Source: Lingula anatina (Eukaryota; Animalia; Brachiopoda). Taken from it: a stretch of DNA of 64,000 nt. A model generated the notes under the pieces. That model worked only from the letters and a program-made list of their open reading frames with translations. It was not told the DNA's origin and did no database searches. Each line of letters starts with the position of its first letter. Position 1 is the first letter of the stretch. The DNA is taken from contig CM120643.1 of NCBI GenBank assembly GCA_051362555.1, forward strand, positions 1,488,001 through 1,552,000. Reading direction: 5' to 3'. The position numbers and the translations under genes were made by a program. Positions 15,084 through 41,886 of this stretch are shown piece after piece.

Positions 15084-15317
15084 TGCCATATACTTAATAC
15101 AAGTAGTGATTATCAATAACAGTAAAGAACTCCAGTCTATGTACGGCGGAAACCAAAATAAAAAAAAATTAAACGAGAAAAAAATGTAGGTTGAGAAAAA
15201 TGAACATGTGATCAAATTTAAGTTACTTGAGTCTCAATAGAAACATCATGGTAACAGAAGGCGAGGGTGGCTACTACATAGCAAGTGTACCTGTATGACC
15301 ACTTCCACTGCCTTAAT

Positions 15318-15437
15318 TCACTCTGGATAGTACAGCCCTGGCCAGAAATACAAAGATTTCCTCAATGTTAGCGTCGATATACTTGATATCTGTCGGCAAC
15401 CATCTCGAGTTGGCATCTTGGAGACACTGTCGTTCAC
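15318..15437 (-). CDS. Exon 14: caspase p10 C-terminus and stop
   Basis: VNDSVSKMPTRDGCRQISSISTLTLRKSLYFWPGLYYPE* with the typical TLRK.LYF.P ending. Confidence 0.9.
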   Translation of the reverse strand: MNDSVSKMPTRDGCRQISSISTLTLRKSLYFWPGLYYPE

Positions 15438-18400
15438 CTTGTTGATAAACAATAACCAGTTGACATAGCAACATCAACCACTTTCTTTGAAATGTGTGAT
15501 TTTAAATTATATTTTGCTACTTTTCATAATTAACGTAATCGTCCAGTGTAAAGGGGGCTTAACTGAGATATTAGTTTACGCCCCCTGTGGGCGGCGTCCT
15601 ATCTGCGTTCCATAATACGGGCCCGATTGAGAGTAGAAAAATAATAATACCCAGTGTAAAGGAGGTTTAACTGCGCTGATCACATCAGTGCATTTATCTA
15701 TTCGGCTTTCGTGGGGCCGCAGAAGAACATGTATGTAAAACGTATGAAAAGATCCGTCTAATATTTGTAACTGGCGCATCCCAAAATAATCATCTGTCTC
15801 TATAATGTACGAAATCCTCCTATGCCGGTGTGACAGAAATGGTAGTCCTGGGAATGGAACTCCGGGCTCCCATACTGTTAGCACCAGTAAAGAATAGGGT
15901 TATTCGAAGTGTTGTGGAACGAAATTCACCGGTGCAAAGCAATGGAAAACGGACTACGGACGCAAGCGGACCACCGCTCCTGCCACACCTAGCTACTGGG
16001 AGTGATATTTGAGGGGACAACATTAACCATTTGTCTTTAGTTTTGTTTCAAAGAGAACTGTTGTAATACGTGATTACCTGTGTCAATATATCAAGTAAAT
16101 GGGTGTCACATGCTTTTTCCGAGAGCTCTTTAACCAGACACTGAATGAAAAACGTACCATGTTCAGTAGATCGCCAAGACTTGTCACCTGAATGGTAAGC
16201 AAACCTTACTTTAATGCCGGGTGTCAAACAAGCGTCACTTTGGTCAAAATGCAGCCAAGAAGACTATAACAGAAGAAATACTTTTCGGACGCCATCTAAT
16301 GATATTCACATCACACGTCCTTAATTTTTTTTCTACAAAAATGTGATGTATCAATAGAACAAAAAGTCACTAGAAACAAAAACACTCGACAATCTTACCT
16401 CTGGTCGTTGAAGTTACTAATATCATATCAGCTTTCTCTGGATTTGAGTGAGTTTCTTGCGGTCTCGGTGGCACTTGTTTTGTATTTAGCAACGGCGCAT
16501 TTTCATCCATACCTTGTGCAAAATTAAGAGATGTTTTTACATAGATAAAAGGCAGGACAAAGAAGTAATGAAGCAATTCCCAAATTATACTGACAAAAAT
16601 TTTTCACTTAATATTGTGCAAAAGAGAAAATTATTTACTGAAATATATAAACCACCGTTAGTATGACTGTTTAATAAAGCTCCATTTTATATTTTATATG
16701 ATAAAAATAAAAATATATAAAAACTCCCCCCCCCCCCCCAGATTTATAAAAGGTAGGATACAACATGTTTTACTATATCAATCATTATAACAATCACAAT
16801 ACGTTTAAACACAAACGCATAAAAGAAAGAATCAATAAAAACCTCATATCATACTTTACACACCAAATTCAAACTTGTCTGACATGAAGAACACAATAAT
16901 ACATCAACCTAGATGAATAGTACTTACTGCCCTGACACGCAGATATGAAGAACATCTTGGGTTTGCCGTTCAGTGTCGGGCACCTGGAAGCCTCAAAGTG
17001 TGCCAGAATTTGGTCATACCCTATGTGATTACCATCAGTGCCTATCACCGTGTTCTCTCCACCATGACTCAGGATCACCATGATGAAGGAAGAGTAAGCA
17101 CTGTGATCAGTGCTTGACTCACGTCTGGCTAGTTGGTCAATAGCCTAAATAGCATAATTTAAATATCTACATTTGATCATTTATGTTCATAAAACCGTTT
17201 TGTTTTATTGTATCATTAACTGACACCCCACTTCATATACCATAATGTGTGTTAATCTTCTTCAGATGTATGTCATTATCTGATAGTTTTAACTATGTAT
17301 TTTAAAAACATCGCCCAAGCAATCTAAGACATTTTGAGGCCAAACTGGAGAGTAATTGCAACAGTTTTTTTGCCACAGTGCTTTCCCAAATTGACAAACT
17401 AAACTCAGCAATGGTTGGCATTTCCTATATAGAAACGTCATAACGTAAAGACATGGTAAAAGTGAAAAAATAAATTTAATTGAGACATTCGTGGAATTTT
17501 GTTCTATACACATGTTTAAAAATGAATACAACTTTGAATTTATTGAATTTTATTTTTGGACACCCTCGCGTGTGAAATACATCTCTTTATATGTATTCGT
17601 ACTATAGCTAGTATACAAAATACGAAAATGCGGCAGGATAACTGACAGTTTAAGATATCAACGTACCTCAGCTGTCAGGTTGTCATGCTTCAACACCAAG
17701 TAATGTAACTGCCGAAATAAACTTTTCAAATGCTCAACATCCACCTCTGTGCCCTTCCTATCAAGGGAAAACTTATTGTCAAAGCTGACATTGTTGATGA
17801 TCACAGCTCTTCCCCTCCAATCTGTGTAGTTCTTGTAGACCTGTTGATTGCCAAAAAAATTTGGGAGCATTAACTGCAATTACAAAATTTTACTGGTGTA
17901 TCAAGGAGATAAGGTGTGAAACATTTAGAGGATGTTGTTATAAAACTGCAAATTTTCTAACAATAAATCTTTTATAAAGTTTGAATATAATATAATATAG
18001 ACTTATATATCAAAAATAAAATCTAATGAAGTGTAGCAACAAACCCGTTTAGCGTCATATGCCTTCTTCTCGAAGAGTTCAACTGTACAAGGCCAGACCT
18101 TAACTTTCTCCTCTCTGCTTGTGCCTAAAAGTGCAAAATGTCTCCCACGTCCCTAATTAATATCGATTTTATAGCGCATACTATGGTAAAATATTTGCCG
18201 GGAGCATCGCAATCCCAGTTAAATGGTTTCATTGTTCACTGTCTGCCAACCTTGGTCAAGATCATTGGGTCACTAGCTATGGCCTCCCGTATTTTTGTCC
18301 TGTTAATATGGTCTGGCCCCATTTGGTGCCCCCCCCCCCCCCCCCCCCCCCCGATGGTTCAAAGGCAGAATGCACCAGTTCCCATATTGCCCCCATGCGC

Positions 18401-21400
18401 ATGCGCAGTCCCTTGTTAAATTCGGTGTCCAGTAAATGAAACCATGTACAAGCGTGAGACCAAGACGAAAGTTGGCTTACTATATACTGTTGTCTATTTA
18501 TATTGGGATGCACGCGACAAGTACTTTTTTTTACGATTGCGACATGCGGCAGAACATAGCTTAGAGGTGACCCAAATTCTCAAACCGTTTTGTTACATGA
18601 TCACAAATTTTGAAAACGGTTAAGGGACTTTAAATAGAAGAACTTTAAAGAGTTTACTGTTACAAAAGTATAACAGAATGCACCGTGGTGTCAAAGAAAC
18701 CAGGCTCACAACTGTGTAATACAGCGTATGAGAACGACACTGTCTTGTCAGGTTTGTCAAAATTAACGTCAGGCTCTCTGATTAAATCTCAGCGGAGCGG
18801 TTTAATAGCTAGGCCCCTGCAAGACTGGCGCTTGTGGTCGGCGGGTACACCATTAGGGTATTAGCGGCATTGCTTTCAAGTGGGTCGGCCATATTTGACC
18901 CGCGGACCAATTAGTCTAAGATCGCATTCACAACGAATTGAGCCATGGCTTTACAAATTCTGGAACTTAATATGGCGGACGTACATGAAAGAACAGCCGC
19001 CTAATCTTTTAATGGTCTCTCCACCTATCACGCCTCCCCATGCGTCGTCCCTGCAGCGGTACAGTCATTAAATTTCGGCTACAATGGGACGACACATGGG
19101 GAGGCGAGTGAGAGGCGGAGAGACCATTAAAAGATGAGGCGGTTTTTCTTACCTGCCTCCAGACTTTGAGGACTGCGTGGTTCTTTCTCCACAGCTGAAA
19201 TGATTGAAATGCAAATTTATTATTGTTATCTTTTTTTATTTTTTTTTTTTTTTGACATTTTATAGCACAGTCTGAAATTCCAATACATTATGTCCATTTC
19301 CAACAAGAGAACTTGTTTTTTTTTTTCTAAATCACTTACTTGTAAACCAAACACGATATGGTTTCAGCTGAATCTCTTCGTCAGCTTTCTCTACGCATAC
19401 ACGGATGGCATCTGTTTTTAGAACGGTCTCTGCTTCTATCGGAATTTTGCGTCTCTTATCGTTTACCCTGATAAAGTAGCCAAAATGCATTCTGGGACAG
19501 TATGTCTCTTGAAGATAGGACAACTCGTCTTCCACTGTTTGTCGTGCGTTGAAGTATATGTTACGCTCAGCGTTATCTATCACTAGTTCAATGTCCTTTT
19601 CTGCAGTGAAGAGATGAAGCACAGATGCTTTGTCTTCCAGACGGAAGGAGGCGTGGTCAAAACCAATATCTGGGATGCCATTTACACAATGGTAAGGTTT
19701 ATACTTCCTAAGCAGACGGATGATCAAACGATGGAATAGCCCTGGAGGAAAGAAGCCGTGAGGGAATGAAATGAATAAAGATATTTCTCGAGCCTTCTCG
19801 GGGGGCCAATATTTCACCAGGTCATTGGATTTCAGCATGCAAGGCACGACGAATTTTCTCTTTCCAGAAGGCAGCATTGGATTTTGAACTGATTTAGATA
19901 TGTCCAACATCAGGTCAAAATGCTCCATAAGTTGAATCACTTCGTTTTTCATGTCGGTCATCTTTTCCTTCTGCAGATATACATCGAACACCTCCTCGTT
20001 CAGTTCTCCTTTTTCCAGACTTCGCTTCAAGTAATCGAGGCGATCCTTTCCACTTTTACTAACAGGCGGGGTCATGATGGCAGAAAACAGATCTGCTAAC
20101 CACTGTGGATCCAATATAACGATATTTTCCAGTCCATCCACTTTGAAGTGTAGGACGTCTCCCAGATGATGATGGTAAGGAATAAACATTTCATCTAACT
20201 CCGCGTCACGGATTCCAACTAAGCGCGCCATATCACGCAGTTCTTTAATATATATGATCGGCCTTTCTTCACTCTTCTTTGCCAAATCCAATTCCAACTG
20301 GAACCATCTCACTGGGTGCATTTGGCGGCCAGCTTCTCTGTCTCTGCTATAGCCACAAAGATGCTCGATCTCGCTTTTTATTTCATCAAACTCCTCAACG
20401 TCGGCCAAGTTACTTATGGCAAAACAACGGTAGACGTGTTCTGCGAGTTCCTGCTTGTCCTCCAGATAGTCCCTGAGTTGATCAAGTATCTCATCAGCGG
20501 CTTCCTATAAATAACACGGTATGGGGTTTAAAATGTTCAATTTCATATAAAATGTTAAGTTTGCCTTTGGAAAAAAAACATTATCCTTTACACTCACATT
20601 CAAGTACATTTCACTTAAAGGCATAATAACTCTTTGTATGTATATTTCACAATAAAAACATTGTGAGTAACTCATAGAAATATAATATATTCTGTTTTAC
20701 CACAAAAACAGCAGTTATAGCTATTATTCTGATATCTGAGCTTGTCTTTAGACCACGTGACCTCCATTGATGGCTATAGACTGTTAAAATCTCTTAAGAG
20801 ATTTTAACAAAAAAACAAACTTTTTAGAAAAAAAAACTGGGACTAATTTTTAATGTAAAAATGAATTCATTAATCATTGGTAAGAATGGGAAAATTGTTG
20901 TTTACTCCAGGAAAATTCATTTTTTGGCCGAAACGAAGAGTTATTATTGCTTTAAACAAGAGGGAGGAAAGGGGTCTGCTTGTGTGTGTGAGATAATAAA
21001 ATCCCAGAGAAGGAAGGAGCGAAAGACGCTTATCTCGACACCAAATCATGTCAACCAAAAACAGTCACCTTTTTCTGGTTCTGGGTACAAGTAGGTACTT
21101 AGTTTCTAGATTTCAGTATTGGCAACTCGATCACGATTTCTGTATAACCCTTATCAGAAATTCTGACTGTAGTCATACTAGGGGTGTGTTCGGCAACATT
21201 TTGCCTGGGGCGTTTCCATATTTGAAAGCCACATGTCTCGAACGTCACAGATCTGTCCCGCTTGGAGCTGCCTTTCCCGCCTTGAGCTGACGTCATCTCG
21301 TGCAGACGAGACAAAGACGAAAAGAGGCTGACCCGGAGATTGAATTTTGAAGTAAGAATACCTTGCAATCGAAAATCGATGCCACAACACAAGCCCCTTT

Positions 21401-24400
21401 CTGCTTTAAAACTAATTTTGGTGTAGCCATTGCGCAGTCCTTATAGTGGTGTTGGACATACAGTGTACATTAGTGGGTCTGAATTGGTCTTAAAGTGCAA
21501 TTTTAGACTTAAACTGGTATGAAGCGATCTTAAAGATTAAGTAAGGAGTCTTAATTTTTAAGTTTTCATTTATGATAGATCCAGATATTTTGGCTTACCT
21601 GTTAACTGTCTTTTATGTCTGTGCTCTGATGTCAAAACTTTAAAAGTATGCTGCACTAGTACTAGTATTAGACACATTTATGCGCATGTCAGTAACAGTA
21701 GACTGGGTCGTGTACGGCTTACGCCATATTAAGATTTTATGTGATTCGAACGCTACGAAGAATTCTGATTTTTAAGTTATATACATATGAACTAACCAAG
21801 ACTAGGCTGACAACATTATTGAAAGCTTCTAAAAATATTCTTTGAAAAACAAAACAAAACAAAACAAAAATCTGACTATATCTAGTGACACCGCCAAATC
21901 GACCTCTACCTATACACACTGAACACTTTTAACACCAAAAGGATGCATGGCTGTAAACGACACAATACATCACGTCAATACGGTGATCGCACACGCACAA
22001 GTGCATAGAGCCTATGACAACGATAGTGATGAGATAATGACATGTATTACAGCGCACCATTCTGACACAGATAAGATGTGAAAAAGACTATAGATGAGTG
22101 AATGGACGCTTGGTCAGAAACGATTATCAGCAATCTAAAGCAGATCCGTGCCAAGGACAACGCCGGTGGCGCCAGGAAGACGCAGAATAGCAGGGGTGTC
22201 TAACGCTCGGTTTTTGAAACTGCAACGGGTGGCCAAAGACCAATATTATTTCGTGAAACACTCGTAAAACAACAAGATTACGATATCTGTTGCCTCGCCG
22301 AAACATTTTTGCAAGGGAAAGATGAATTACAAATTGATGATTATTTCTGGATTGATAAAAACCCGCACCAATCTGCTTGTTAATGCGCATAGAGGATCGG
22401 GTGGAGTTGGCTGTTTACTACGGAAAAGATTGGTATCAACCTACGACGTTAAAGTCCTTGACTGTGAGATGAAAGGAGTTGTTGTTTTCTAAAGCACAAA
22501 CAGAAAAAAACAACTTTTTCTTGGGTGTATGTTACCTTCCCCCAGAGAACACGCTCCTAAAACTGACACTGAAAAGCATTTTTAAAGCTTGCAACAGATA
22601 TATATGGTTACCAAAATTTGGGAAATATAATAATTTATGGTGACTTCAATGCGCCTGCAGACGAGATCGAGATAGGCTGTTGATGAAATAGAACCGCGTA
22701 AAAATTTAGATGAGCATACGAATAGCCATGGAACGCACTTTTTAAATTTACTAACAGACATAAACATCTGCGTGCTTAATGGTAAAATAGGCGAGAATGA
22801 CAAGCATATCATAAGCCTCGGTCACAACCGGCCGCACGGGCTCTTACGGGCTGTTTGCGTCCAGATTTTGCGCAGAATCTCACGTCCCACACAAGTCCTT
22901 ACGCAAATTCGAGCTAGCCGACAGCCCGTAAGCACGTACGGAGGATGTTGGACATGTCGAAAAGATTCTACGAATAGTCTGCGAACAGCAAGGCCGCAAG
23001 CGTAACTTGCTCCCCTCGCCCGGAGTTAGCAAGAGAGACGCGCGTAGTGCAAGACGCACGTCGCAAGCAATGAAGAAGCAAATGCCATTTGCGTGTTGAG
23101 TAAGACACCAGCCCTCTGAACTAAAGAACAAAGTGGACAGCACATTGGGAATGCGTCGCACGTGCGTCACCCCCACGCAGTAGCTGCGAAGAGATGCACG
23201 AAGCTAGATATTCAAACAATTTTGACATATCTCAGGGAAGATAAATTTTCTCCAGAAGCTTCACTCAAAGAAAAAGGGGTAATTAGAAGAGCCAGTAACG
23301 ATAACTACAAGGTAAATCATTTTCTTAAAATTCATATTAACCTTAAAGTTTTCCGTGGACTTCTATTACCAGTACAGCATGTCCACAAAACCATTGTCAC
23401 TTCCAACGCACGTCGGCGGCCTAAAGACATTAGGAAGCATGCTCTAGCAAATATAATGAGTGGATATATACTTTCAGTACGCATATTATTTGGTTTAGCA
23501 AAATGTTAATTGCTGTTTTCAATGCTTGATATGCGTTTGGAAATGTTATCTTTATTTATGAATTATCTTTTTTTTTAGCTCGAAAGAGGAGAACATTTCT
23601 AAAAAGTGCAGGATAAAAACCCAAACAAAATGTTGAAACCAATGATGAATCAGGGGGTGAAGGCACCTCTTCAATGATAACTGAAACATCATGGAGAAAA
23701 GTTATGACAAACCAGGAAGAAATAAAGGACATTGTGGCTAACATGCACTCCTCGGTCATAGGCATGCATATTTGTGCGGGCGTATCTTCATGTGAGCAAC
23801 AGTGTGTGCGCACGTGTTGTGTTAAGAAACGTTAATTACATACCATGATATATATTTATATAATAATTGTAACACTATGATGTCTGTTAATAACAACTGT
23901 AATAATACGTAATGTTCTGTTATAGGCGGACATCTCGGGCGGGATAAAACTCTTGATAAGCTTCAGAAAAGGTACTACTGGCGTAATATGGTCGAGGATG
24001 TTAGAAAATTCATAGCCTGCTGCGCAATTTGCCAGAAGGCAACACACAAATATAAACAAAATGACCCACCTCTCCAACCAATACCTGTCACAACGCCAGA
24101 AGCCTGGAATATGGTAAGAAATATTTGTTCCTTATACCCCCTTTACACTTGACGGCGTCCTTTCTGCCACCATGAAATTTGGCATCGCTGTGGTCTTAAT
24201 AAGATGGCACGATCATTGATTTTGTATCAGAATGAATGCTCAATGACCGGCCAGTTGTCGGCACGTAAAGTATTATAATTTTTTAACTCTCAAATGGGGC
24301 CGTACTGCTGGACGCAGAAAGGACGCCGTCCAGTGTAAAGGGGCCCTTAAGGCTGGGTCACACTGCGCTTGCAACCTTTTGGCAACCTCTTTGCAACCAC

Positions 24401-30400: not shown

Positions 30401-33400
30401 GCTGTTGATATTGTTCGCGATTAATATTGAAGTATAACTCCTTCGCCTGCATGTAAACGTGTTACTTTTCCTCATGTTCTCTATATTTCTTTTAGGTGGT
30501 TGAGACAATGGGATGAGATCGATAAAAGTAAAGGTTAATCTAAACAATTAGATGCGATTTTTGTGAAATGACTTATTAAGTGATGTGCATGTACCTAGCA
30601 TGTTTAAATTCTTGAATTTCTGATTTGTTAAATCTTTAATACACGGCTTCATATATGTATTACTCTCAGGCCTTCGATATTATTGTGTTACACGGGACTA
30701 CTGGAAACCTGAAGCACAGGTCTACGGAGTCTTGTTATCCTTCATGCAGTTTTATGGCTGGGATGAACACTGCGAAGTAGAAACAGGCTTTACTTAGCTT
30801 TACTTGATGCACGACAGTTTAAACAAAACCAGTCTGCAAGGCTTGCTTTGATTTGGCGTTAACCTTACACTGGTTTTAAAAGAACAAATATAAATATGTT
30901 CGATGGATTAAATACCGGCTTCGTTATATTTAACTAAATGCGTCCATTTGCACAGTTACACAGGTAATATTTGTAAGTTGTCTGTCGTTCAGCACGCATT
31001 ATAGGCGAGTAGCTAAATAGTGACGGTGATCAATCCAAGCTCAATCTTGGCAAATATCGTTTACAAAATAGATCATGTTGAATAAACTTAATTACGCTTT
31101 AATAAATAATCAACACACGGTTCGGTTATTGTCACTTGAAAGCTTTCGATCAAAGACGTTCAATGAAATCACAAATCATTTGACGATTAAAAATGGACAT
31201 GTTCAAGGGACAGTTTTTGTTTCAGATAAAGGGACTTCAGGTTCAGGTAGAGGGTTCAGTTACGTGTTTCATCGGATGATAGCATCACGCCCTAGGTCTA
31301 AGCGAGTTGAATAGAAGCTTTTTATCCAAACATCCTATTCCTAACTACTGAGTTAGGACAAAGGTCTAGTAACATGTACATGTACTGTGCAATTACTATT
31401 TATGGATCAGATGCATACCTGATTGTTTTTCCTCTGGTGTCGCACGTATGCATCCTTTCTTGAGTGATCTAAAACAAGTCGCTAGTGTACCATGTTTCTC
31501 ACTACATAGCAAAATATGTTCGACATGGTGTTTCTGAACGGCAGCCGGAGACACAGTAATTGTATAGGCATGCTTTAAGCTTGTTCGAGAGATAATAACA
31601 GTCGGGTTTAACAATAGATAGCGAGCTATAGTAAGACCCCCTCCTCTTTAACTGATGATTTTCACTTTTAATTGACCGTACTTTCGTATATTGTATGATC
31701 ATACAGCCAGACTTCCCCCTGTTGCACGTTGTAGTTGGATTGTCATTGCGCCTATGTCAATGCACCTCATTTAATTTCAATATTATAATAAAAGCATAAT
31801 ATAAGTAATATGTTATTTCCTTATTCCTCTTTCATTATCATTCATGTTTTATAAATACTTGAAAGCTTGAATGCAGATATTTCAAATTAAAACGTAAGTA
31901 CATAAATAAATTATACATTTATAAATTAATGCAATAGGAATTTTTTGAGACAGATTGATGCTGACGCTCATGCATTTCAACCAAACAAACAATAATTAGT
32001 TCAATTTTTGACTGCGGAAATTTTATATAGGATGAAATAACTGATAACAAATTTAACTAGCAGTTTGTTAGCAACACTAAAAACCAGCTGCGCGTGCCAA
32101 ACTAGTGAACAAAAGGACAGTTCGCTTCGCGTGGCACGCCTTAGCATGGGTTTAGCCTCTTCAAGCTATAATCCTATCGCTGCATCAAACAATAGGGACC
32201 TTCTGGCTGATGTATCCTGCTGTTAATTACACCTAGTTACAGCGGATTGTCACGCTCGCGCTGGGCCACAGAAACCGGCGTCATGGGGTTCACTCGTATT
32301 AAGTATTGTGTTATTCCACCTAAGCTATTGTGTTTGTGCGTTCGAATTTTGAAGGGATTTATACGGCCCTCCATTGTTTGTCCGCCCCCTTCTATTCACA
32401 AGATAGGGATTAAAATATTTCGAACGTTGTTACACCGGTGTACAACGGAAACAAAATTATTCCGACCACTGTACCCCATGAATATGTATGAATAGTGAAC
32501 AAGCTCTGATACTTAGGGCAAATACAAGGTGTACACTCCAAAAGTCTAAATGACTCGCAATGTCTCGTAATATGAAGAGTGCAGTGGTACGGATGGGACG
32601 TATGGTATAAAACGAATCGAACAATTGAATAAAAAACAGATTTATTACCTCTGAAGCCAATTTGTCCTTATGAGTTCCAATAATCAAAACGTGTGGGATG
32701 ACGCTCTTGTTTTCTTTTGATTTTCTAACTGTGTGCATATGGATAGAGTTCAACCAATACACTATGAACTCTGAAAAATGTAAAAGAAACATTAAGGTAA
32801 AGAAGACTGTTTATCACAATTTCCCCAACAAAAATAACACGGCCAGTTCTGTTGATTATTAACAGAAGGCGCAAACAGAGGAACGGTCGGCGTTTCCAAT
32901 TCAAATTAAAGGATAGTTGCACTTGCATTAGTGCTTACAGATAAAACATCTAACATGGTCTTTCACAGTTACCTAAAAAAAGGCATCTAAATGTAATCTT
33001 CATCATACCTTTCACGGTCTTCTCTCCTCTGTATACCGGTATTTTGGTATCGAGGTCTACGTCAAGCCTGAACACCAACAAGTAGATGTTCTGCTCTGAG
33101 AGGAAAGTCTGGTGAGTGGTGTAGTAAACATCTTGACCACCAAAATCCCAAATTGTAATCTGTTTCTCAGGATCCACAGGTTCTCCACGAGCACCTGACT
33201 CTATTTTTTGCACAAGGTCCGGATGGAAATTCTTGAAACTGGCTGTCTCTGCTATAAATACGATTAATTTGGAAGGGTCTTATGAACGTGGTTTACGGTA
33301 TATTTAAGTTAGGTAACATTGGGAGAATTCACATCGAGAGGAACCGAGGTCTAGTAAGATCGCTACCTAATATGGCGGACCTACATGAAAGGGAAACCGC

Positions 33401-36400
33401 TTAATTCGTTAATGGTCTCTCTATCTCTCACACGCCTCTCCGCGCGTCGTCCCTGAAGGGGCTCACTAATTAAATCTCGGCTCAATTCAACCTGTCGAGG
33501 GACGATGCGTGGGGGAACCGAGGGTGAGAGGCGGGGAGACCATTACAGGATTAAGTGGTTTTCCTAACATGTAGGTCCGCCATATTTAGGTAGCGGCCTT
33601 ATTAGACCTTGACTCATCTCGATGTGAATGCTCCCATTGATTGCTGAAAGAGTGGTGACAATGAAATTGCTACTTCATTGGCCGTAACATATTCCGCACT
33701 GTCTTATACCAAAGAATACTGTTTCATACATTCCCCAGATATTACGATATTAAGTGGACTCTTACGAAATGGATGGACCACAGTCGTGAAAAAGGTGTGC
33801 ATTTTTTTTTTTTTTGGAAAGTAAAGAAATATAATTTATTGTTTCTGTTCTATTAAAAAACCGTAAGTGAGGAACATGTACCTGTTTCTGACTCCCGAGT
33901 GTTGCTATAAATAACCTTCTCCACCTTTCGGGATTCCACTGGTGGCTTTTCGTCCACTTGGTCTACCCGGCGGAATGCGTCTGGTTTCTGTATTCCAATT
34001 ACCATGTGTTGCACCAGGTGATCTTCTGGGTCATCTGAGGATTGTGAAAAGAACATTCATATTGACATGATATTTTCTAACCCAAGATGCATCAGGTTAT
34101 GGAGCTGTGTGACTTATAGGGGCCATAGGGCCTAGAGCCTGGTTTGAAAAATATACAAGACGAAGGTTTACAAAAATATGAAGAATCTTGGAAAATGAAA
34201 CTGTCACGATCGCAGGTGTCTGAATATTGACAAGAAACCCACAAAGCTTTTGAACGAGCACTTTTTCAGCAAAGTTGTTGATAGCCATACATGAATATGC
34301 ACTGATGGTACCCCCCTCGTCTTCCAGCCCAATGTGGTGGGAAAATCTTAACCACTTTAGAGCTTATGGAAAAGTACAGCGCCCCTAATTTTGCTCCATT
34401 CTGTTCTTTCCTTCCCAAATACACTAGTGTCAAATATGTTTTCTAAGTCTCATTACCTTTCCCTCTGACCCAACTAGATCGGCCGTCTTTATGGACGATG
34501 CACCTATGGCGGTATATCTTCACACCAGGTGTATATGCGTCTGTTTCTTCGTCATATTCCTCTTGAAGGAGGCGCTTGACGAGATGAGTCTTCCCCACAC
34601 CGTAGGGACCAACAATAGCTACTCGCTGTCTGTAAACTGGGACTGCACCACTGGCACATAAGCGGTCAAACTTTGCTCTAAAATCTGGTAATAAACAGAA
34701 CAGGTGTAACGTGACAAAGAGTCCCCCATATCAGAGAGTCCGCTTCCCATTCATTTGAACAGGTGAGCTTTTTCCTAGATTTTGATCCACTATGATCAGA
34801 CTAAACCTTAATGTTATAACTATATGGAGTGCGGACTTTGTGTTACACGGACTGGACCCTCAGTTTCAATATACCGGTAATTTATGACACTGCTACAGGC
34901 AACAGCACGTAGTAACTTTTCGACATGATTAACAGACGTTACGTGCGATCTAGCTACGTCTTAGCCGGATGCAAGGTACATAAAAACCGTGCGCCCAAAA
35001 CGTAGTTGGGACCTAGGCTTTACGACCAACCGTGGTTAGAGTGTCCGCCTCCGGAGCAGGAGGACGCGGGTTCAAGCCCGTCCGGGGCCATACCAGCCCT
35101 TTATAAACGATACCTGCGGTCTCCCCGCTTGGCAATCAGCACTAAGGGGTTGAAGCAGGGACCTGGTCTGGCAGTGCAGAAATGAAATATTAGCTCTGAG
35201 CGCCTTTTCATAGTTAGTCGCACTGGTTGTCGGTACACAAAAATGGCCTTCGTATGTCAACGATCGCAGGCGACCTGTTAGCAGCCTTATGCGACCACTT
35301 TTAAACCTAAAGGCTGGGTCACACTGCGCTTGCAACCTTTTGGCAACCTCTTTGCAACCTCAGCCGCAAGGAGGTTGCCCTAGGTTTTAAAGTGGTCGCA
35401 TTAGGTTGCAAACAGGTCGCCTGCGATCGTTGACACACGAAGGCCATTTTTTTGGCACCGACAACCAGTGCGACTGATAATGAAAACGATTGGTAACTGA
35501 GAGGTTGCCTATAGGTCTCCTCTTGGTTGCCAGTAGGTCGCTGTAACCAGACTAAAACCAGTCGCATACCACCTGTAACTGCACGGTCGATTGACGGTCT
35601 TTAGTCGCTTAGTTGCAAACAGGTTACTAACCGGTTGCAAGCGGTGGGCAGCAGGTCGCAAGGAGGTTGCAGTTGAAACTTCATGGTCGATTAACGGTCT
35701 TTAGTCGCTTGGTCTCTAACAGGTTTCTTACAGCTCGCATGCACTCGAAAACATGTCGCGAGAAGGTCGCAAGCAACCGTGATAAAATAAGCGTAGGATG
35801 GTGGCCACTAAATATATAAATATATTTTTCATTTATATCATGCCATTAAGGCTTTCTAAATACCTTGACAAAAATCGTTATTTCTCAATTAAAACGTAGA
35901 TTGTATTTGTTGTCATCCTTTTAAATTTATTTACAAGGTTTTCATAAGTATTTTTTTTCAATAAAATAAATAAATGTATGAGTCCCTATCAGCCACCATA
36001 CTTGACTAAAAGTGTTGTAAATAGAAGCCGCTGAGCCCGTGTCTTCAGTCCCCAGTATGTCATCCAACAGCGTGGGAAGGGTGGCCAGAATGTATTTTGA
36101 GAAAGCAAATGCCCGTGAAGAAAGTTCTTCACAAAGTTCCAACAGACTCTGCTTCCCACGAAGAGGATCAACCGAAAGATGATGAACGCGGAGGAGACAG
36201 GGAGCCTAAATTTACTATTAAAGAGGAAGAAGAATTAGTTGATTTTTTTTAAGGAAAACGAGTTTTTCTATAACCAACAATTGAAAGACTTTAAAAACAA
36301 ATCAAATAAAGTGCCAAAACAATCAATAATGATTATCACAATGTAAACGATAAACTGTTATCTTTTTATCCATTCCTATATCATGGCTAATTTTTGACAA

Positions 36401-39400
36401 CTATTGTTGTCAAATCTACTGGAAACATTTTTAATGACTAAAGCAGCCGGAAATATCTTACTTTTTAATTTGCCAAGTCATAATTTGCCAAGTCACAATG
36501 GAAGAAAAATTAAGCAAATAGGCGGGCGCAGAGAAAAAAAGTAAATAGCAAAGTTTGATTCATACTTTTTACAATAAATTTAATTGTCAGGCATTTTTAT
36601 AACAGTAAAACAGTGTCACCAATATAAAGAAGGTCAAATAAATACAAATTAACTTCCTCCCAGTACTTAGAATTCGTACCACAAGGACGGAAACAAATTG
36701 ATGACGCGCAGGATCCTTCACTATTTAAAGATGTTGTATTGTAAGTGTAACGCTTGGGGCTACAAAGACAAAGGGAAAACCACACAATCGGTCGCAAATC
36801 AGTTGCTAAGCAGTCGGCGACCTTTTAGCAACCGGTTGGATACCACAAATAGGCTTTTCGGTCGCCAGGAGGTTTTCGGTGCTGCACCGAAAACCGGCGC
36901 GACCGGATAGTAACCCAGCGTTCATTTGGAGACCACTTTGCGAGTTGTTGCAACTTGTCGCCCACCTTTCTGCAACCGGTGACAGTTGCAAGTCGCAAGG
37001 AGGTTTTATGTTCAGTGTGACCGTAACTGCACAGGCCTTGCGACCTCAAAGATACCAAGTATTGAAAAAAGAAACTATGCATGCCTATTATTACATTAAT
37101 AAGGCTGAAAAAACATCCAAATATGTGTTTTATTACACCACTGGTTTGATATAAATGCCAATATATAGTACAAATATATTTCTTATTTATTATTGTAAGT
37201 TTGACAATATTGGTAGTACAGAAATCGACTGTGACGTTATAACAGAATCTCATAGCAGAATCATACTTTAATATTCAAAATATTAAATCATTTGAAGCTG
37301 CTACAGAACGGATCCAATCGTTGTATAATGTTTAAAATATTCCCTCTGTTGTCATCCGAGAGGGAAATTTACGAGAAGGCAGCTATCGTCACAACTTATA
37401 AAATATATATAGTCTGTGCAACCTTGCTGCTACCAGTTGGCAAGCGATCGCTACAGTCCTGCAACCGGTTTTCAGTCTCCAAGTGGTTGCTGACAGGTTG
37501 TTTATCGCTCGCCTAACGGTGTGCGACTGGTAACCTCTGACTTGAAGATTGTCTGTAAGAGGTTGCAGATACCATACTGTAACCTTGTTGCAACCGGTTA
37601 GCAACTGCTTGCCGATCAAAATATGCAAATTAGGTCGCAAAGTGATCGCAAGCGACCACCAGATTTTGTGGTTGCAAAGAGGTTGCCAAAAGGTTGCAAG
37701 CGCAGTGTGACCCAGCCTTAAGGCAGCCTCCTTGCGACTAAGGTTGCAAAGAGGTTGCCAAAAGGTTGCAAGCGCAGTGTGACGGGGGCTTTAGATCTAC
37801 TGTCCCACCAGGACATCCCAGCTGTAGGACATATATTGCTGTCGAACATAATTTTCATTCACATTTACACAGGACGACAGGGACGGGTATCAAAATGAGT
37901 TAATTGAAGTATCAATAGCTATATGCTGTAATTATACAATTAATATTGCAATCTGTTTATTTCACTGTATTTCAGGCCTGCAGGCCAAGAGTACATCAAT
38001 TGAGTTCTATTTATAATACTGAGCTGACTACACAGGGATATATATCATAAATGACACTAATTACTTATCTAAAAGAACATCTCTTAATTTCTCTGCAGAT
38101 AAACAGATTGCAAGGGATATATATCATAAATGACACTAATTACTTATCTAAAAGAACATCTCTTAATTTCTCTGCAGATAAACAGATTGCAATATATTGC
38201 TGTAATTATACAGGTTGAAAAGGGGCGTGTAAAATAATGTAACTTGGAGTTTAGCATCCAATCGTAGACTCAACGACTATCTGAGGTAGCTTATCAATTC
38301 AGTCATGAGCTCCAAATTTTGTTGACATACAGGGTTACTACTTAATATGGAATATTTTTTATCATTGTTATTTTTGAGTGCTGATTAAATATTCTTTGGC
38401 TTGATTCATCAAAAAAAGTATGTCACTGAGTGATAAAAACATCCAGTCTTCTGTTGTGAGATATTTTGGTCAATAATATCACATCTGACATAAGATGCCA
38501 TTCAAAAGAAAGGAACACCCCCAGAAAACCATGTCATCAGCTTGATGTCAATATTAACTTTAAGTTAAGATATTAAAGAAAGTGATATGTTACACAGTCA
38601 AAGAACTCACTACAGTTAATCATGAAAAGTCAGTAATTACGGGTATGACCTCCAGCAGCCGCTTGCAGCGCCCTCATCCTACATGGCATACCCTGTGCCA
38701 CGTTTTTTAGAGTTTGGATGGGGATATAATTCCACGCAGTGATATTTGCCTGTCGCAGTTCATCACTATTTACCGACCGATGACCATAGCTATTAAATCT
38801 GTGAGTTACTTTTGCCCAAAGTTTTTCAATTGGATTCAAATCGGGAGAGTTTGCAGGCCAGGGCAGTTGCTGAACCCATTGGTTTTGAAGAAAAATAGTG
38901 ATTTTGCGAGCTCGATGTGGTTGCGCAGTCGTCTTGGTATACAAATTTGTTCCTGAAGATGACTCTTACCAATCGAAGCATTGTTTTCTGTAGAATGTCT
39001 CTGTAAGAATCCTGGTTAAGGTTGCCTCCTAGAAAAAACAACTGGTCCTGGGCACCGACATGATATGCTCCCCAAACAGAGACGTTACCACCCCCCGCTT
39101 CCATCCTAGGCAGTGCACAATCATCGTTTTATGCCTCTCGTACACTTCGGCAGACACGGAATCTACCGTCCATATCTGGCCTCATCACCAAACCCATGCG
39201 TTTTTATACAAGGGCAGAAATTGCCAAAAAGACCACCCCTCACATTTCTGACCACAGAACATGCAACTGAATGCATTAATTGTTTCGTGAGTTGTGCAGT
39301 AATTAGGTAACACACTTGGCTACACATGGAGTGACACCTCAGTTTTGGATTTTTAAAAAAAAGTAAGAGAAAAAATAAATATTTTGTAGAAAATTTACTT

Positions 39401-41886
39401 GGTAAAAAATAATATTCCCAATTAAGTAGTAACTCTGTACATAATTGTCAGTCGTGGTAGCCCTGCAAATCACTAAATTACCATGTCGATTGACACATGC
39501 AAGTGTTTTATATATACATTGTAATTTACATGTATGAGCACACATGGGTGAATAAATTACACCACTGTTGGCAAGTTAACACAACGCACCGGCAGAGCAA
39601 AGAAAACCAGTAAAAATCACTTGGAACCTAGACTTCTATTCCTGTCACACCGGCAGTGAACTCCCCTCTGTGCAATCAAGGAAAACCAAAAACCCAAAAA
39701 AGAAATTTCTCACCCCTGTCCCAGTAAATGCCTTGGATGTTGTTGTATTTATTCCTGCAGCAACCTGTCGACATAAAAATAATTTTGTTCACCCAATAAC
39801 GTAGTGCACTCCATTCACATGTGATATTACCACACGTTGCAATATTATGGCTGACATCCATCCCCTTCCCCTCACACCGGGTCTTTTTACCAAAAATTTA
39901 TTTCTGGATTTCAAGAGATTTCTTATAATATGTTGCTGCTTCTGCGTACTTACCCCAGCCTTCAATGCTATTTTTGTTCATCCTATCCAATACTTCTTGT
40001 GCAGTTTTTTGCTTGAGTTGAGCTGATGATAATTTCAGTATGAGTGGATTTCCCCCACACTTCTCTGCTATTTCACCTAGGGCTATTGATTCACTGACAG
40101 TGGGACTGGCGGTTTTTCCTTCCCAAAGGATATCAATGGAGGGTGCCTTACCAAGGGGAGATACGATTATGACAGTCGTGGTATGCGACCTGAGGCTGAA
40201 TGATTCACGGCTGGTACACAACAAAGTAATATGCTTTGATGAATTTAAAATATTCTGAAGCAAGCTGTGAAAGTCCTGCCATTTTGACTTAATAACCTCA
40301 TCGTTGTTATCAAAAATGATAACAGTGTCTGAAGTTAAACTAGACAAAGTTTGTATGAGTATATTTTGATAATCACTGTATAAATCTATCAGGGGTCGTG
40401 TTGGGTGGTAGTGCTGGGCTAGAGATAACTTGATAGTTTCAAGGTCGGTGATTTGTCTCATATCAATGTACAGTGCATTTTCCTCGCGATGTCCGACCTC
40501 GATAGCCACCGATGTCTTACCAATGCCCCCCATCCCCGTTAGAAGAACAAGTCGGGTTTCACCTGCAATATACTGCTGTATTAGTTGTACCAATTCTTCG
40601 CGGCCTTTAAGGTCAGGAAGTTTTCTTGGTAGATGTACAGAGAAGAGCTGGCATGGGGCAACTGGAAATATTAAATGAATGCCATAAACACAATCATAAC
40701 AAACATGCTACAATTCACATAACTATTTATAGTTGATAGAAAATTACACAATAAAAAGATGTCAATAAAAACTAAAAACGAACCGAAGGAGCATAGATAG
40801 CCAATGCAGCTCACCTCTCAATTTGTAATTAAAACTAACCAATTAATAAACAAAAAGTTCACAAGCAATTTAGTTACTTGGTCCACTGCCAACAGTTTGT
40901 CAAAAGTTCATCAAAAGCAGTCCACAATGTGCATGATGTTGCTAACAGACAGACAGACAAACGAAAAAAAAAATGACGCACTTGGTGGCGAACATGTAAA
41001 GCAAACTAAATTATGTTGTTCTACCTAGAGCTTCAAAATATCACAAACGCTTACATTTCTTTCTAAGAAATATCTTCACGGCGGACCAACAAAAATGCAC
41101 TACAGTGTATAAACACTATGTGCTCACTAAAGCATAATATTAAGAAAAGGGGTAAAAGAAAATTAGGTAAAATACAATTTTTCAAATTGCAAACCAATAT
41201 TATTACGTGTGTATACGCTGATGTTGACCATTATAAATCAATTACCTTTGACTCTTATATTTTATTGTTACTCGCCAAACGCTGTTTTACAAAGCTCGAT
41301 TACCTTTAGCATCCAGGGGCACAATAAGAAGCTTGTCGTAATCATCACTGGTATATATTGGGGACAGTGACAGCAGGACTTGCTTGAGAGCATTAAACTC
41401 TGCCTGAAATGCTGTGTCAGTGATGCCAAGACGCTGTCCATGTGAGTGCTGATTGCGGTAGGTCTTCACTCTCCCAATGTTGGCCTCTATGGAGGTGTCG
41501 GAAGCTGGTGGGTTTTCCCATTTAGCATGAGGGTTCAGATTGGTGATGTTTCTTAATAAAACAACTGCAAGTGTAATATCTAAGTCCTGTGTTGTCACAG
41601 TTGTTGAAGGGGTGCCAGAGGGGTACAGGAGTTTCATTTGACTCGAGTTTCTTACCTTTCTATTTTTCAATAGCAGTAAGGTATGTTTGACTTGTAGATT
41701 GTCAAGTACGTCAAAAAGTTTGTCAGTTTTACTGGGATCAAACAGTCCCGGATAAGCTGCTTTTAGCTGAGTCCTGAGAACATCTCGAAGCACGTCCGTT
41801 GCATGCCCTAAGAGCAGGTGCATGCGGAAATAATTTTCTTTTTCATTCCGTGGTATTTCAAATGGAAATATCTGTGCTGTTGCCAT
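15318..41886 (-). CDS. Predicted 14-exon gene: HEPN(DZIP3-like)-NB-ARC-Roc-COR-caspase fusion protein, ~1352 aa (1116 aa if the NB-ARC exon is skipped)
   Basis: Manual splice model join(41886-41304,40661-39954,34684-34457,34034-33882,33251-33009,32770-32649,20504-19340,19194-19153,18124-18045,17840-17667,17144-16928,16512-16399,16187-16078,15437-15318). All introns are GT-AG, all phases are compatible, there is no internal stop, and it ends in TGA. The Roc-COR-caspase part is better supported than its link to the HEPN/NB-ARC exons. Confidence 0.7.
16078..16187 (-). CDS. Exon 13: caspase p10
   Basis: GDKSWRSTEHGTFFIQCLVKELSEKACDTHLLDILTQ (SWR...G.xFI motif). Phase 1-0. Confidence 0.9.
16399..16512 (-). 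CDS. Exon 12: inter-subunit linker and p10 start
   Basis: SMDENAPLL...PEKADMILVTSTTRG matches the P..AD.L...ST..G motif. The acceptor (aAG) is less certain. Phase 1-1. Confidence 0.8.
16928..17144 (-). CDS. Exon 11: caspase catalytic His/Cys exon
   Basis: VILSHG...CPTLNGKPKMFFISACQG. Phase 0-1, donor A|GTAAGT. Confidence 0.93.
17667..17840 (-). CDS. Exon 10: caspase p20 N-part
   Basis: VYKNYTDWRGRAVIINNVSF...DRKGTEVDVEHLKSLFRQLHY...DNLTAE. Phase 0-0. Confidence 0.9.
18045..18124 (-). CDS. Exon 9: segment preceding the caspase large subunit
   Basis: GTSREEKVKVWPCTVELFEKKAYDAKR resembles the caspase-2 segment VKPCTPEFY that precedes the catalytic domain. Phase 1-0. Confidence 0.7.
18968..19150. 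mobile_element. Partial palindromic MITE (same family as 33317-33639 and ~48060-48165)
   Basis: AATATGGCGGAC.TACATGAAAG... arm plus the internal inverted repeat TAATGGTCTCT / AGAGACCATTA. Confidence 0.7.
19153..19194 (-). CDS. Exon 8: 42-nt linker micro-exon
   Basis: tttcAG|...|GTAAGA; TVEKEPRSPQSLEA, phase 1-1. Supported only by splice signals and phase. Confidence 0.55.
19340..20504 (-). CDS. Exon 7: Roc end (FAISN) plus COR domain
   Basis: Extends ORF 19332..20408 upstream to a phase-0 acceptor. COR motifs PVRWFQLE, YHHHLGDVLHF, ILDPQWLADLF, VVPCML, FFPPGLFHRLI. Donor ACAA|GTAAGT, phase 1. Confidence 0.9.
24135..24346. mobile_element. Tourist/PIF-Harbinger-like MITE
   Basis: TIR CCCCTTTACACT.GACGGCGTCCTTTCTGC and its inverse; TTA on both sides. 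Related ends at 15541 and 15651. Confidence 0.75.
24350..26757 (+). mobile_element. 2408-bp non-autonomous PIF/Harbinger-like DNA transposon, copy A
   Basis: ~49-bp TIR AGGCTGGGTCACACTGCGCTTGCAACC...; TTA target duplication; many subterminal GGTCGC/GGTTGC motifs; no transposase motif seen. Confidence 0.88.
32649..32770 (-). CDS. Exon 6: Roc G4 region
   Basis: EFIVYWLNSIH...PHVLIIGTHKD. Acceptor ttttcAG, donor GAG|GTAAT, phase 1-0. Confidence 0.9.
33009..33251 (-). CDS. Exon 5: Roc G3 region
   Basis: ITIWDFGGQDVYYTTHQTFLSEQNIYLLVFRL is a hallmark Roc motif. 243 nt, phase 1-1. Confidence 0.9.
33317..33639. mobile_element. ~320-bp fold-back MITE in intron 4
   Basis: Arms CA.TGGGAG.ATTCACATCGAG...AATATGGCGGACCTACATG and their inverse CATGTAGGTCCGCCATATT...CTCGATGTGAATGCTCCCATTG. 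Confidence 0.8.
33882..34034 (-). CDS. Exon 4: Roc insertion between G2 and G3
   Basis: DDPEDHLVQHMVIG...RESET. Acceptor cctcAG, donor ACAG|GTACAT. 153 nt, phase 1-1. Confidence 0.7.
34457..34684 (-). CDS. Exon 3: Roc GTPase N-terminus (G1, G2)
   Basis: Not in the ORF track. Translates DFRAKFDRLCASGAVPVYRQRVAIVGPYGVGKTHLVKRLLQEEYDEETDAYTPGVKI...; P-loop GPYGVGKT and G2 TPGV. 228 nt, phase 1-1, AG/GT borders. Confidence 0.85.
34702..34892. mobile_element. Short MITE-like repeat, second copy at ~53290-53468
   Basis: Shared GTGTAACGTGA...AGAGAGTCCGCTTCC...GCGGACT..TACACGGA. Confidence 0.6.
35028..35172 (+). mobile_element. tRNA-derived SINE (5' part)
   Basis: A-box-like TGGTTAGAGTG and B-box GGTTCAAGCC, followed by a core CATACCA...TCAGCACTAAGGG resembling invertebrate SINE cores. 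No complete cloverleaf. Confidence 0.65.
35203..37790 (+). mobile_element. Older diverged 3'-end remnant of the same family, split by copy B
   Basis: 35203-35310 and 37722-37790 join into a mismatched version of 26580-26757. Confidence 0.8.
35311..37718 (-). mobile_element. 2408-bp non-autonomous PIF/Harbinger-like DNA transposon, copy B (inverted relative to A)
   Basis: Same length and TIRs as copy A, TAA target duplication. The internal ORF translations are identical to copy A at mirrored coordinates (sum 62068). Confidence 0.88.
38034..38191. repeat. Exact 79-bp tandem duplication
   Basis: AGGGATATATATCATAAATG...AAACAGATTGCA twice, head to tail. Confidence 0.9.
38330..39437 (-). mobile_element. 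Tc1-like element, internally deleted and frameshifted
   Basis: TIR CAG(G/A)GTTACTACTTAAT at both ends with flanking TA. Transposase motifs GGGNVSVWG, YQDDCA, WPANSPDLNPIEKLW, GGHTR. Confidence 0.9.
39870..39953 (-). pseudogene. TPR-like remnant downstream of the NB-ARC exon
   Basis: In-frame read-through GKYAEAATYYKKSLEIQK*IFGKK resembles a kinesin-light-chain-type TPR interrupted by TAA. Confidence 0.6.
39954..40661 (-). CDS. Exon 2: NB-ARC / AP-ATPase-like STAND NTPase
   Basis: LKGREE, Walker A GMGGIGKT, Walker B VIIFDNND, sensor LLCTSR, and AEKCGGNPL (GxP). Acceptor tttccAG (40662-40663), consensus donor TGGG|GTAAGT. 708 nt, phase 1-1. Confidence 0.85.
41304..41886 (-). CDS. Exon 1: DZIP3/hRUL138-like HEPN domain
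   Basis: ORF MATAQ...PLDAK with ENYFRM, QMKLLYP, DLDITLAVVLLRN and YRNQHSH (Rx4H), typical of animal DZIP3-type HEPN. Acceptor ttttcacAG lies 10 nt before the ATG; donor AAAG|GTAATC is phase 1. Confidence 0.85.

What the first reader, a model, noticed from the sequence alone, without database searches (positions are those of the whole stretch)
15318..41886. Single-chain HEPN-NB-ARC-Roc-COR-caspase protein: a possible all-in-one immune/death switch
Seen: 14 same-strand exons splice in frame into ~1352 aa with an N-terminal HEPN, a STAND ATPase, a Roc-COR GTPase and a C-terminal caspase with intact His/Cys. Established: NB-ARC proteins (Apaf-1/CED-4) recruit separate caspases through CARDs; Roco proteins usually carry kinase, LRR, ankyrin or death domains; HEPN Rx4H domains are dimer-dependent RNases. 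Inference: two nucleotide switches sit between two dimerisation-activated effectors (RNase and protease) in one chain, which resembles prokaryotic STAND-effector antiviral fusions. I do not know of a described protein with this architecture but could not search for one.
Basis: partly seen in the sequence, partly recalled or inferred. Interest (0 to 1): 0.95.

Follow-up and report, generated by a model that had tools for sequence, protein, structure and literature searches.

The report
Freshly shuffled Roco-caspase with headless NB-ARC
In this brachiopod-like animal, pieces of three immune-type gene families sit in one open 14-exon reading frame (RNase-like, ATPase, GTPase, caspase), but the ATPase has lost its regulatory half, so the product is likely a GTPase-gated cell-death protease with an RNase-like head rather than a true two-switch device; a sea-anemone gene model has the same domain order.

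Summary
In detail: 14 GT-AG exons give a stop-free 1352-aa frame, with HEPN, NB-ARC, Roc, COR and caspase hits. The interpretation needs three corrections.

(1) The NB-ARC exon is a collapsed relic of a Lingula HEPN-NB-ARC-TPR gene. It ends after helical domain 1, lacks the winged-helix and TPR parts, and splices out through a donor inside a leftover TPR.

(2) The gene is a recent mosaic. It is 97-99% identical to Lingula LOC106162424 (HEPN joined directly to Roc-COR, no NB-ARC, no caspase) up to residue 988, then 70%; its caspase is 90% identical to another locus.

(3) The order is not unique. Exaiptasia XP_020902336 is HEPN-STAND-Roc-COR-caspase, and Roc-COR-caspase recurs in Lingula, Owenia and amphioxus.

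RNA supports only HEPN>NB-ARC (4 reads, paralogues not excluded). The single chain is plausible but unproven. Most likely mechanism (inferred): Roc-COR dimer cycling gates the caspase and HEPN; NB-ARC is an optional cassette. No paper describing the four-part form turned up in eight searches.

The parts
41304..41886 (-). Exon 1 (coding part): DZIP3-type HEPN, Rx4H intact; ends in phase 1
   Evidence: Pfam PF18738 2e-32; 99% to LOC106162424, 94% to HEPN-NB-ARC-TPR LOC106175059
39954..40661 (-). Exon 2: NB-ARC core (NBD+HD1 only), symmetric phase 1-1 cassette; donor lies inside relic TPR codons
   Evidence: PF00931 7e-08; 76-81% to the five closest HEPN-NB-ARC-TPR family members; model aligns to Apaf-1 116-370 and ZAR1 150-390; joint to exon 1 in 4 RNA reads
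39898..39953 (-). Read-through tail: TPR remnant ending in a stop; AATAAA at 39753
   Evidence: Up to 15 of 19 residues match TPR units of the paralogues; TPR_1 E 0.05; poly(A) word
34457..34684 (-). Exon 3: Roc start with G1 P-loop
   Evidence: PF08477 4e-06; 96% to LOC106162424
33882..34034 (-). Exon 4: Roc insertion
   Evidence: In frame; matched by LOC106162424
33009..33251 (-). Exon 5: Roc G3; NAGNAG acceptor
   Evidence: PF08477 1e-07; RefSeq isoforms X1 and X2 differ by one residue at this acceptor
32649..32770 (-). Exon 6: Roc G4
   Evidence: In frame, matched by LOC106162424 and paralogues
19340..20504 (-). Exon 7: Roc end and complete COR (N- and C-halves); inferred crossover near 19577 (residue 989)
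   Evidence: COR-A 1e-21; model pLDDT 87; Z 21.4, rmsd 3.2 A, 285 aligned to C. tepidum COR 3dpt; 15 of 558 versus 23 of 77 differences to LOC106162424 before and after residue 989
19153..19194 (-). Exon 8: linker
   Evidence: In frame; similar to the linker of LOC106167140
18045..18124 (-). Exon 9: pre-caspase linker
   Evidence: In frame; nearly identical to the start of XP_013409672
17667..17840 (-). Exon 10: caspase p20 start, Arg179-equivalent present
   Evidence: PF00656 5e-09; alignment
16928..17144 (-). Exon 11: caspase catalytic His1193 and Cys1236 (SACQG)
   Evidence: PF00656 7e-16; motifs
16399..16512 (-). Exon 12: inter-subunit linker and p10 start
   Evidence: In frame; matched by LOC106167140
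16078..16187 (-). Exon 13: caspase p10, SWR (Arg341-equivalent)
   Evidence: PF00656 8e-06; alignment
15318..15437 (-). Exon 14: caspase end and stop; AATAAA at 15083
35308..37723 (.). Transposon copy in intron 2, 100% identical and inverted to 24345-26760; terminal inverted repeats, TAA flanks
   Evidence: Self-BLAST; flanks
24345..26760 (.). Transposon copy in intron 6; TTA flanks

Best explanation
The locus is one open reading frame built from three sources, likely by recent recombination, and its product is predicted to be a Roco-type caspase in which Roc-COR dimer cycling would switch on the caspase (and perhaps the HEPN RNase), while the NB-ARC exon is a truncated relic that is likely an optional in-frame cassette rather than a second regulated switch. 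Shown: the frame, the domains, the truncation, the identities and the breakpoint. Inferred history: (a) a HEPN-NB-ARC-TPR gene came to lie upstream of Roc-COR exons; (b) an internal deletion joined the end of HD1 to a TPR unit, removing the winged helix and the sensor repeats; (c) the TPR's G-K-Y codons supply a phase-1 donor, so exon 2 can be spliced in or skipped without a frameshift; (d) a crossover in a loop of C-COR gave this copy a caspase end where LOC106162424 has none. Inferred mechanism: C-COR-mediated dimerisation in the GDP-bound or empty state, as in CtRoco, brings two caspase domains and two HEPN domains together. The trigger is unknown because no sensor repeats remain.
For: Truncation: the exon-2 model (pLDDT 84) ends at Apaf-1 370, ZAR1 390 and NRC3 385 (Z 15-17, rmsd 3.2-3.4 A). 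The five paralogues aligned continue through a further domain and TPRs, and a tblastn of the fetched proteins finds nothing more than 60 bases outside the 14 exons (0 of 531 hits). Relaxed constraint: 23 of 165 private changes at otherwise invariant columns, versus 5-10 of about 150 in five siblings, and 1 of 149 in the same gene's HEPN. Absence or skipping: both RefSeq isoforms of LOC106162424 join HEPN directly to Roc, and no database protein exceeds 80% identity to exon 2 among 13 hits. Mosaic: (p 1e-13); caspase 192 of 214 identical to XP_013409672. Roc-COR sits in a Lingula-only clade (support 100) whose six members end in caspase, HEPN or no recognised domain. COR is complete and folds across the breakpoint. 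The WHD's role in ADP locking and oligomer contacts is from PMC8813719 (passages); C-COR dimerisation and nucleotide-dependent monomer-dimer cycling are from PMC6337361 (passages).
Against: Exon 2 keeps an unbroken frame and all four core motifs despite its long branch, and the frame breaks 17 codons after the donor, which argues that the exon is used. The only junction seen in RNA includes it (4 reads), and no read shows skipping. Stops alone would be absent by chance with P 0.14-0.42, so this is suggestive only. The long branch could also reflect an unsampled paralogue. The Exaiptasia model also keeps a truncated STAND between HEPN and Roc, which may mean the truncated form is selected. No read evidence was obtained for any junction 3' of exon 2. 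The caspase has Ser where most have Gln before AC: 5 of 76 motif matches have SAC, 69 have QAC.
Confidence: 0.55

Rival explanations
1. One reading: the full four-domain chain is the main product, and the WHD-less NB-ARC is a working ATP-dependent element (for example a constitutively open clamp or spacer) that co-operates with Roc-COR.
For: Native acceptor, strong GTAAGT donor, open frame and intact Walker A/B, sensor-1 and GxP; 4 reads across 41304>40661; the same order with a truncated STAND in Exaiptasia XP_020902336.
Against: No WHD/MHD or sensor; 2-4 times more private changes than siblings; near-identical RefSeq isoforms lack it; the 4 reads were counted at 90% likeness and may come from paralogues, one of which is visible as a variant joint in the same run (table 5c); GenBank splits the Exaiptasia locus into two genes.
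Confidence: 0.2
2. Separate or dying products: a roughly 448-aa HEPN-NB-ARC stub ending at the stop at 39900, and/or HEPN-Roc-COR ending right after exon 7, with the long chain existing only on paper.
For: Both exon 2 and exon 7 read through into a stop followed by AATAAA (39753; 19240 and 19221). RefSeq annotates the closest caspase as a stand-alone 227-aa gene whose end departs from the family frame. RNA depth on the laid exons is only about 0-5.
Against: Roc exon 3 starts in phase 1, and no ATG-led alternative first exon was found in intron 2. HEPN, Roc-COR and caspase show no lesions. The paralogue LOC106167140 has the same COR-to-caspase exon run. AATAAA is common in AT-rich introns.
Confidence: 0.17
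3. Assembly chimera: the switch near 19577 joins two tandem paralogues or haplotypes by mistake.
For: Abrupt identity drop inside an exon; repeat-rich region; adjacency across the breakpoint was not tested with reads.
Against: The window has no N. The join is in frame and falls in a loop of a confidently folded COR. Such end swaps are the rule in this clade.
Confidence: 0.08

Closest known systems
Lingula anatina LOC106162424 (XP_013395172/3), HEPN-Roc-COR
   Same: 99% in HEPN and 97% in residues 431-988; matches exons 1 and 3-7
   Different: No NB-ARC exon in either isoform; different C-COR end; no caspase
Lingula HEPN-NB-ARC-TPR family (for example LOC106161121, LOC106175059)
   Same: Exons 1-2 are 87-94% (HEPN) and 76-81% (NB-ARC) identical to the closest members
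   Different: They keep the domain after HD1 and long TPR arrays; none of the 11 hits carries Roc or caspase in its precomputed Pfam list
Metazoan Roc-COR-caspase models: Lingula LOC106167140, LOC106175244, LOC106171421; Owenia CAH1786849 (Bcl-2-Roc-COR-caspase); Branchiostoma XP_035660786
   Same: Roc-COR directly followed by a C14 caspase. An Owenia caspase with a ROC pro-domain is noted in PMC11463336 (passages).
   Different: No HEPN or NB-ARC head; I found no functional study of any
Exaiptasia diaphana XP_020902336 (LOC110240863)
   Same: HEPN_DZIP3 - truncated STAND-like P-loop - Roc - COR - caspase, 1429 aa
   Different: 25-32% identity; its STAND does not score against a profile of the Lingula family (-1.0 bits); GenBank splits it into two genes; a separate origin is inferred
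Bacterial LRR-AP-GTPase(Roc)-COR systems with swappable C-terminal effectors including caspase (PMC8195603, section 15 and supplements)
   Same: Roc-COR core with an exchangeable effector; COR+CASPASE rows are in its supplements
   Different: They have N-terminal LRR sensors; here a HEPN sits at the N-terminus and no sensor is present
Apaf-1 / CED-4 / plant NLRs; prokaryotic STAND-effector antiviral proteins (Avs; recalled)
   Same: NBD+HD1 fold
   Different: No CARD, WHD or repeat sensor; caspase in cis behind a Roco module

Membership tests
NB-ARC (AP-ATPase) STAND switch | Walker A, Walker B, sensor-1, GxP; NBD+HD1 fold | tested here: met
   Motifs; PF00931 above cut-off; Z 15.9, rmsd 3.4 A, 217 aligned to Apaf-1 1z6t
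NB-ARC (AP-ATPase) STAND switch | Winged-helix domain with MHD-type motif | tested here: not met
   Exon product ends at Apaf-1 370 / ZAR1 390; the paralogues' following segment, with a DLHP motif, is deleted. That segment gives only weak winged-helix Pfam hits (best DnaD_N 4e-4; APAF-1-like WHD 0.17), so its WHD label rests partly on position.
NB-ARC (AP-ATPase) STAND switch | C-terminal sensor repeats | tested here: not met
   Only a 17-residue TPR remnant beyond the donor, then a stop
NB-ARC (AP-ATPase) STAND switch | ATP-dependent ring oligomerisation | not testable with these tools
   Needs biochemistry
Roco (Roc-COR) | Roc G-motifs in tandem with COR | tested here: met
   G1, G3, G4 motifs; Pfam Roc and COR-A
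Roco (Roc-COR) | Complete COR including the C-terminal dimerisation half | tested here: met
   Z 21.4, rmsd 3.2 A, 285 aligned, model 64-388 on 3dpt 629-938
Roco (Roc-COR) | Nucleotide-dependent monomer-dimer cycle | not tested
Caspase (C14A) | His-Cys dyad and the two P1-Asp-binding arginines | tested here: met
   H1193, C1236, R-x-GT and SWR align with other caspases; residue roles are recalled
Caspase (C14A) | QACxG pentapeptide | tested here: not met
   SACQG; Ser is shared with three Lingula relatives (P0002, P0024, P0028), so it is a clade trait rather than fresh decay
DZIP3/hRUL138-like HEPN | PF18738 match and Rx4-6H motif | tested here: met
   112 bits; R144-H149; motif and family as described in PMC3710099 and PMC9646362 (passages)
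DZIP3/hRUL138-like HEPN | RNase activity | not testable with these tools
   Putative even for the family (PMC9646362)
Apaf-1/CED-4 | CARD before the NB-ARC, WD40 after (Apaf-1) | tested here: not met
   HEPN precedes and Roc follows; PMC11463336 reports APAF-1 absent from brachiopods
Single four-domain transcript | Reads across every junction | tested here: inconclusive
   1 of 5 introns inside the laid stretch (30000-46400) has a listed joint; depth is near the 3-read listing limit; the 8 introns 3' of exon 6 have no read data

The most novel reading that the evidence does not exclude
Animals have repeatedly built a one-chain death switch by dropping the front of a HEPN-STAND receptor (sensor and winged helix removed) onto a Roc-COR-caspase. 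Lingula and Exaiptasia reached HEPN-truncated STAND-Roc-COR-caspase separately; the truncated ATPase is retained by selection; and Roc-COR genes act as a chassis that swaps effectors by crossover inside COR, a metazoan version of the bacterial AP-GTPase conflict systems with GTP-gated caspase activation.
Probability: 0.2. Interest if true: 0.85.

Novelty: new variant of a known kind. Interest (0 to 1): 0.55.

Why it matters
If the chain is made, it points to a route to caspase activation that needs no CARD/DED adaptor and no apoptosome: proximity driven by a Roco GTPase. That matters in brachiopods, which are reported to lack Apaf-1 (PMC11463336). Roc-COR-caspase models occur in at least four animal phyla, and I found no functional study, so the class is directly testable. 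The locus also preserves the steps of domain shuffling at 90-99% identity (gene collapse, cryptic donor from TPR codons, crossover inside COR), which are rarely visible so clearly.

Tried and rejected
No whole genome is held for this window, so paralogue DNA and dN/dS were out of reach.

No RNA holder is listed for 15300-20600; this blank is not evidence on expression. In one search, runs X10 and X13 had almost no depth on exons 1-2, and no joint was listed for 39954>34684, 41304>34684 or the three Roc introns; at this depth that is uninformative. No reads were laid on the 3' half, which leaves COR>caspase and the 19577 breakpoint open.

Complex prediction of a COR dimer was not available. The protein atlas gave no usable hit for P0174. 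Three look-ups of earlier findings returned nothing. ARAGORN and Rfam found nothing in the window.

Inversion between the two identical transposon copies was considered and rejected: both flanks of copy 2 continue one older element in register, and all exons share a strand. The RefSeq copy's own last exon is not in the window (best E 1.1).

Shared ancestry of the Lingula and Exaiptasia arrangement: forcing window + LOC106162424 + Exaiptasia together is rejected (p-AU 1e-6), but six Lingula rows + Exaiptasia is not (p-AU 0.20; 23 of 47 rows, quick LG+G4 trees). Separate origin therefore rests mainly on the recent source of exons 1-2. One Fisher test used miscounted numbers; one search replaces it.

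A paper on the Lingula immune system that I recall (Gerdol et al. 2018) is not held and may mention these genes. Supplement file 4 of PMC8195603 was cut when stored, so absence there is partial.
Full report
1. Observation. I rebuilt the model from the window. Fourteen minus-strand exons (41886-41304, 40661-39954, 34684-34457, 34034-33882, 33251-33009, 32770-32649, 20504-19340, 19194-19153, 18124-18045, 17840-17667, 17144-16928, 16512-16399, 16187-16078, 15437-15318) with 13 GT-AG introns give 1352 aa without an internal stop. Single-exon Pfam scans give HEPN_DZIP3, NB-ARC, Roc, COR-A and Peptidase_C14 in that order. Rx4H, the NB-ARC Walker A/B, sensor-1 and GxP, Roc G1/G3/G4 and the caspase His/Cys are intact.

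2. Source. All close relatives are Lingula anatina RefSeq proteins: 5 of 6 hits to the COR exon and 11 of 13 hits to the NB-ARC exon. The window is therefore Lingula or a very near brachiopod (inference).

3. The NB-ARC exon is a collapsed receptor. Its 11 Lingula relatives carry TPRs and 10 of them a HEPN. In the five aligned, the NB-ARC core continues into about 200 further residues and then a TPR array. In the window, the core runs directly into a 17-residue TPR unit (up to 15 of 19 residues identical to paralogue TPRs) and a stop at 39900. The splice donor at 39954 lies inside that unit's G-K-Y codons. A fold of the exon (pLDDT 84, 14 sequences) matches Apaf-1 116-370, CED-4 121-364 and ZAR1 150-390 (Z 14-17), which is NBD plus HD1 (domain boundaries recalled). 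PMC8813719 (passages) states that the WHD's MHD motif is needed for ADP binding in the resting state and that an HD1-WHD interface builds the oligomer. Without WHD and sensor, the canonical switch cannot be assumed. The exon has 23 of 165 private changes at columns invariant in five siblings (siblings 5-10 of 147-152), while the HEPN has 1 of 149 (pooled Fisher p 3e-4, rough because columns are not independent). Against pure decay: the frame and motifs are intact up to the donor and break just after it. Lack of stops alone has a chance of 0.14-0.42 under neutrality.

4. The gene is a recent mosaic. LOC106162424 (XP_013395172/3) is 99% identical in HEPN and joins it directly to Roc in both isoforms. 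Exon 2 is phase 1-1, so skipping keeps the frame. Identity to that gene is 543 of 558 over residues 431-988 and 54 of 77 over 989-1067 (p 1e-13), placing a crossover near 19577. In the COR model this falls between a strand and a helix at high confidence, and the COR is complete (Z 21.4 to CtRoco COR). The RefSeq gene has no caspase. The window's caspase is 192 of 214 identical to a different RefSeq entry, XP_013409672. The Roc-COR sits in a six-member Lingula clade (support 100) whose members end in caspase, HEPN or no recognised domain (47 rows in the first tree with 10 left out as redundant, short or doubled; 23 rows in the second). Which of the two copies is the recombinant cannot be told.

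5. Expression. Four RNA runs from three studies were laid on 30000-46400 at 90% likeness. Joint 41304>40661 appears in 3 reads of X16 and 1 of X17, and in none of X10 or X13. Two further X16 reads show a paralogue's version of the same joint, so the four reads need not be from this locus. No other exon joint reached the listing limit; exon depth is about 0-5. There is no read evidence for the 3' half.

6. How unique. A search of 1.84 billion representatives with LOC106167140 (best 150 listed) and a local domain scan of the 172 proteins then held gave 7 Roc-COR-caspase and 3 caspase-Roc-COR proteins, plus one that Pfam resolved as Roc-COR-caspase. Named ones are from Lingula (3), Owenia (Bcl-2-Roc-COR-caspase), Branchiostoma, Exaiptasia and, in reverse order, Potamilus. 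GenBank annotates the same region as two genes. Its ATPase does not align to the Lingula family, and its Roc-COR and caspase fall elsewhere in the trees, although a clade with all six Lingula rows is not rejected. Because Lingula exons 1-2 derive from a local family at 76-94% identity, I infer separate assembly.

7. Literature. Eight searches (open-access PMC and bioRxiv only) showed no paper describing a HEPN-STAND-Roc-COR-caspase protein in the listings or in the passages I read. PMC11463336 (passages) notes an Owenia caspase with a ROC pro-domain and reports APAF-1 absent from brachiopods. PMC8195603 (passages, section 15, supplement searches) describes bacterial LRR-AP-GTPase-COR proteins with at least 24 exchangeable effectors including caspase, and lists an Amphimedon AP-GTPase-COR-DED-TRADDN-caspase and coral HEPN+AP-ATPase rows; the HEPN+GTPase and ATPase+GTPase terms I tried had no rows. 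PMC3710099 (passages) and PMC9646362 (passages) cover DZIP3-HEPN fusions and their haplotype variation in oyster. PMC11378527 (abstract only) covers Roco exon shuffling in brown algae. PMC2575513, PMC9334734 and PMC7159879 (passages) give context only.

8. Mechanism. Shown: a complete Roc-COR with a caspase behind it and a HEPN in front. From known families: CtRoco is monomeric with GTP and dimeric when empty, through C-COR (PMC6337361, passages); initiator caspases and HEPN RNases act as dimers (recalled). Inferred: Roc-COR dimerisation is the switch for one or both effectors. The NB-ARC core is a passenger or spacer that may be spliced in. The activating signal is unknown, as no sensor repeats remain.

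9. Verdict. This is a real and unusual locus, a new variant of the uncharacterised Roco-caspase kind, caught soon after shuffling. It is not shown to be one transcript, not a canonical double switch, and not unique in order. Interest 0.55.

Noticed in passing
P0174 (XP_020902336, Exaiptasia diaphana): Same HEPN-STAND-Roc-COR-caspase order with a truncated ATPase; split into two genes by GenBank.
   Followed up: partly
P0030 (CAH1786849, Owenia fusiformis): Bcl-2 domain fused to Roc-COR-caspase in one 1362-aa model; the passage read in PMC11463336 mentions only the ROC pro-domain.
   Followed up: no
P0100 (unnamed representative, 1063 aa): Caspase fused to a complete RIG-I-like helicase.
   Followed up: no
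P0178 (Branchiostoma floridae, 7154 aa model): At least four Roc-COR units and three caspase stretches in one model, probably a merged tandem array.
   Followed up: no
window 24345-26760 and 35308-37723: Two 100% identical 2416-bp copies of a DNA transposon with terminal inverted repeats and TTA/TAA flanks (PIF/Harbinger-like by recall), in opposite orientation around the Roc exons; copy 2 sits inside an older related element.
   Followed up: partly
window about 35030-35205: tRNA-like head with A/B-box-like words (probable SINE, by recall); RNA run X10 lays about 3300-fold depth on this bin at 90-95% likeness. ARAGORN and Rfam find nothing.
   Followed up: partly
window 38323-39128 and 49100-50276: Decayed transposase copies (DDE_3, 1e-06), Tc1/mariner-like by recall; one lies in intron 2.
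   Followed up: no
window 33251/33248: NAGNAG acceptor at exon 5; RefSeq isoforms X1 and X2 of LOC106162424 differ by exactly this residue.
   Followed up: yes
window 41897: A splice acceptor 10 bases upstream of the start codon implies a further 5' exon that was not located.
   Followed up: no
window 7296-11950, 43283-48806, 51717-56533, 57988-63969: Large local duplications at 72-92% identity; no protein hit from the fetched set.
   Followed up: no
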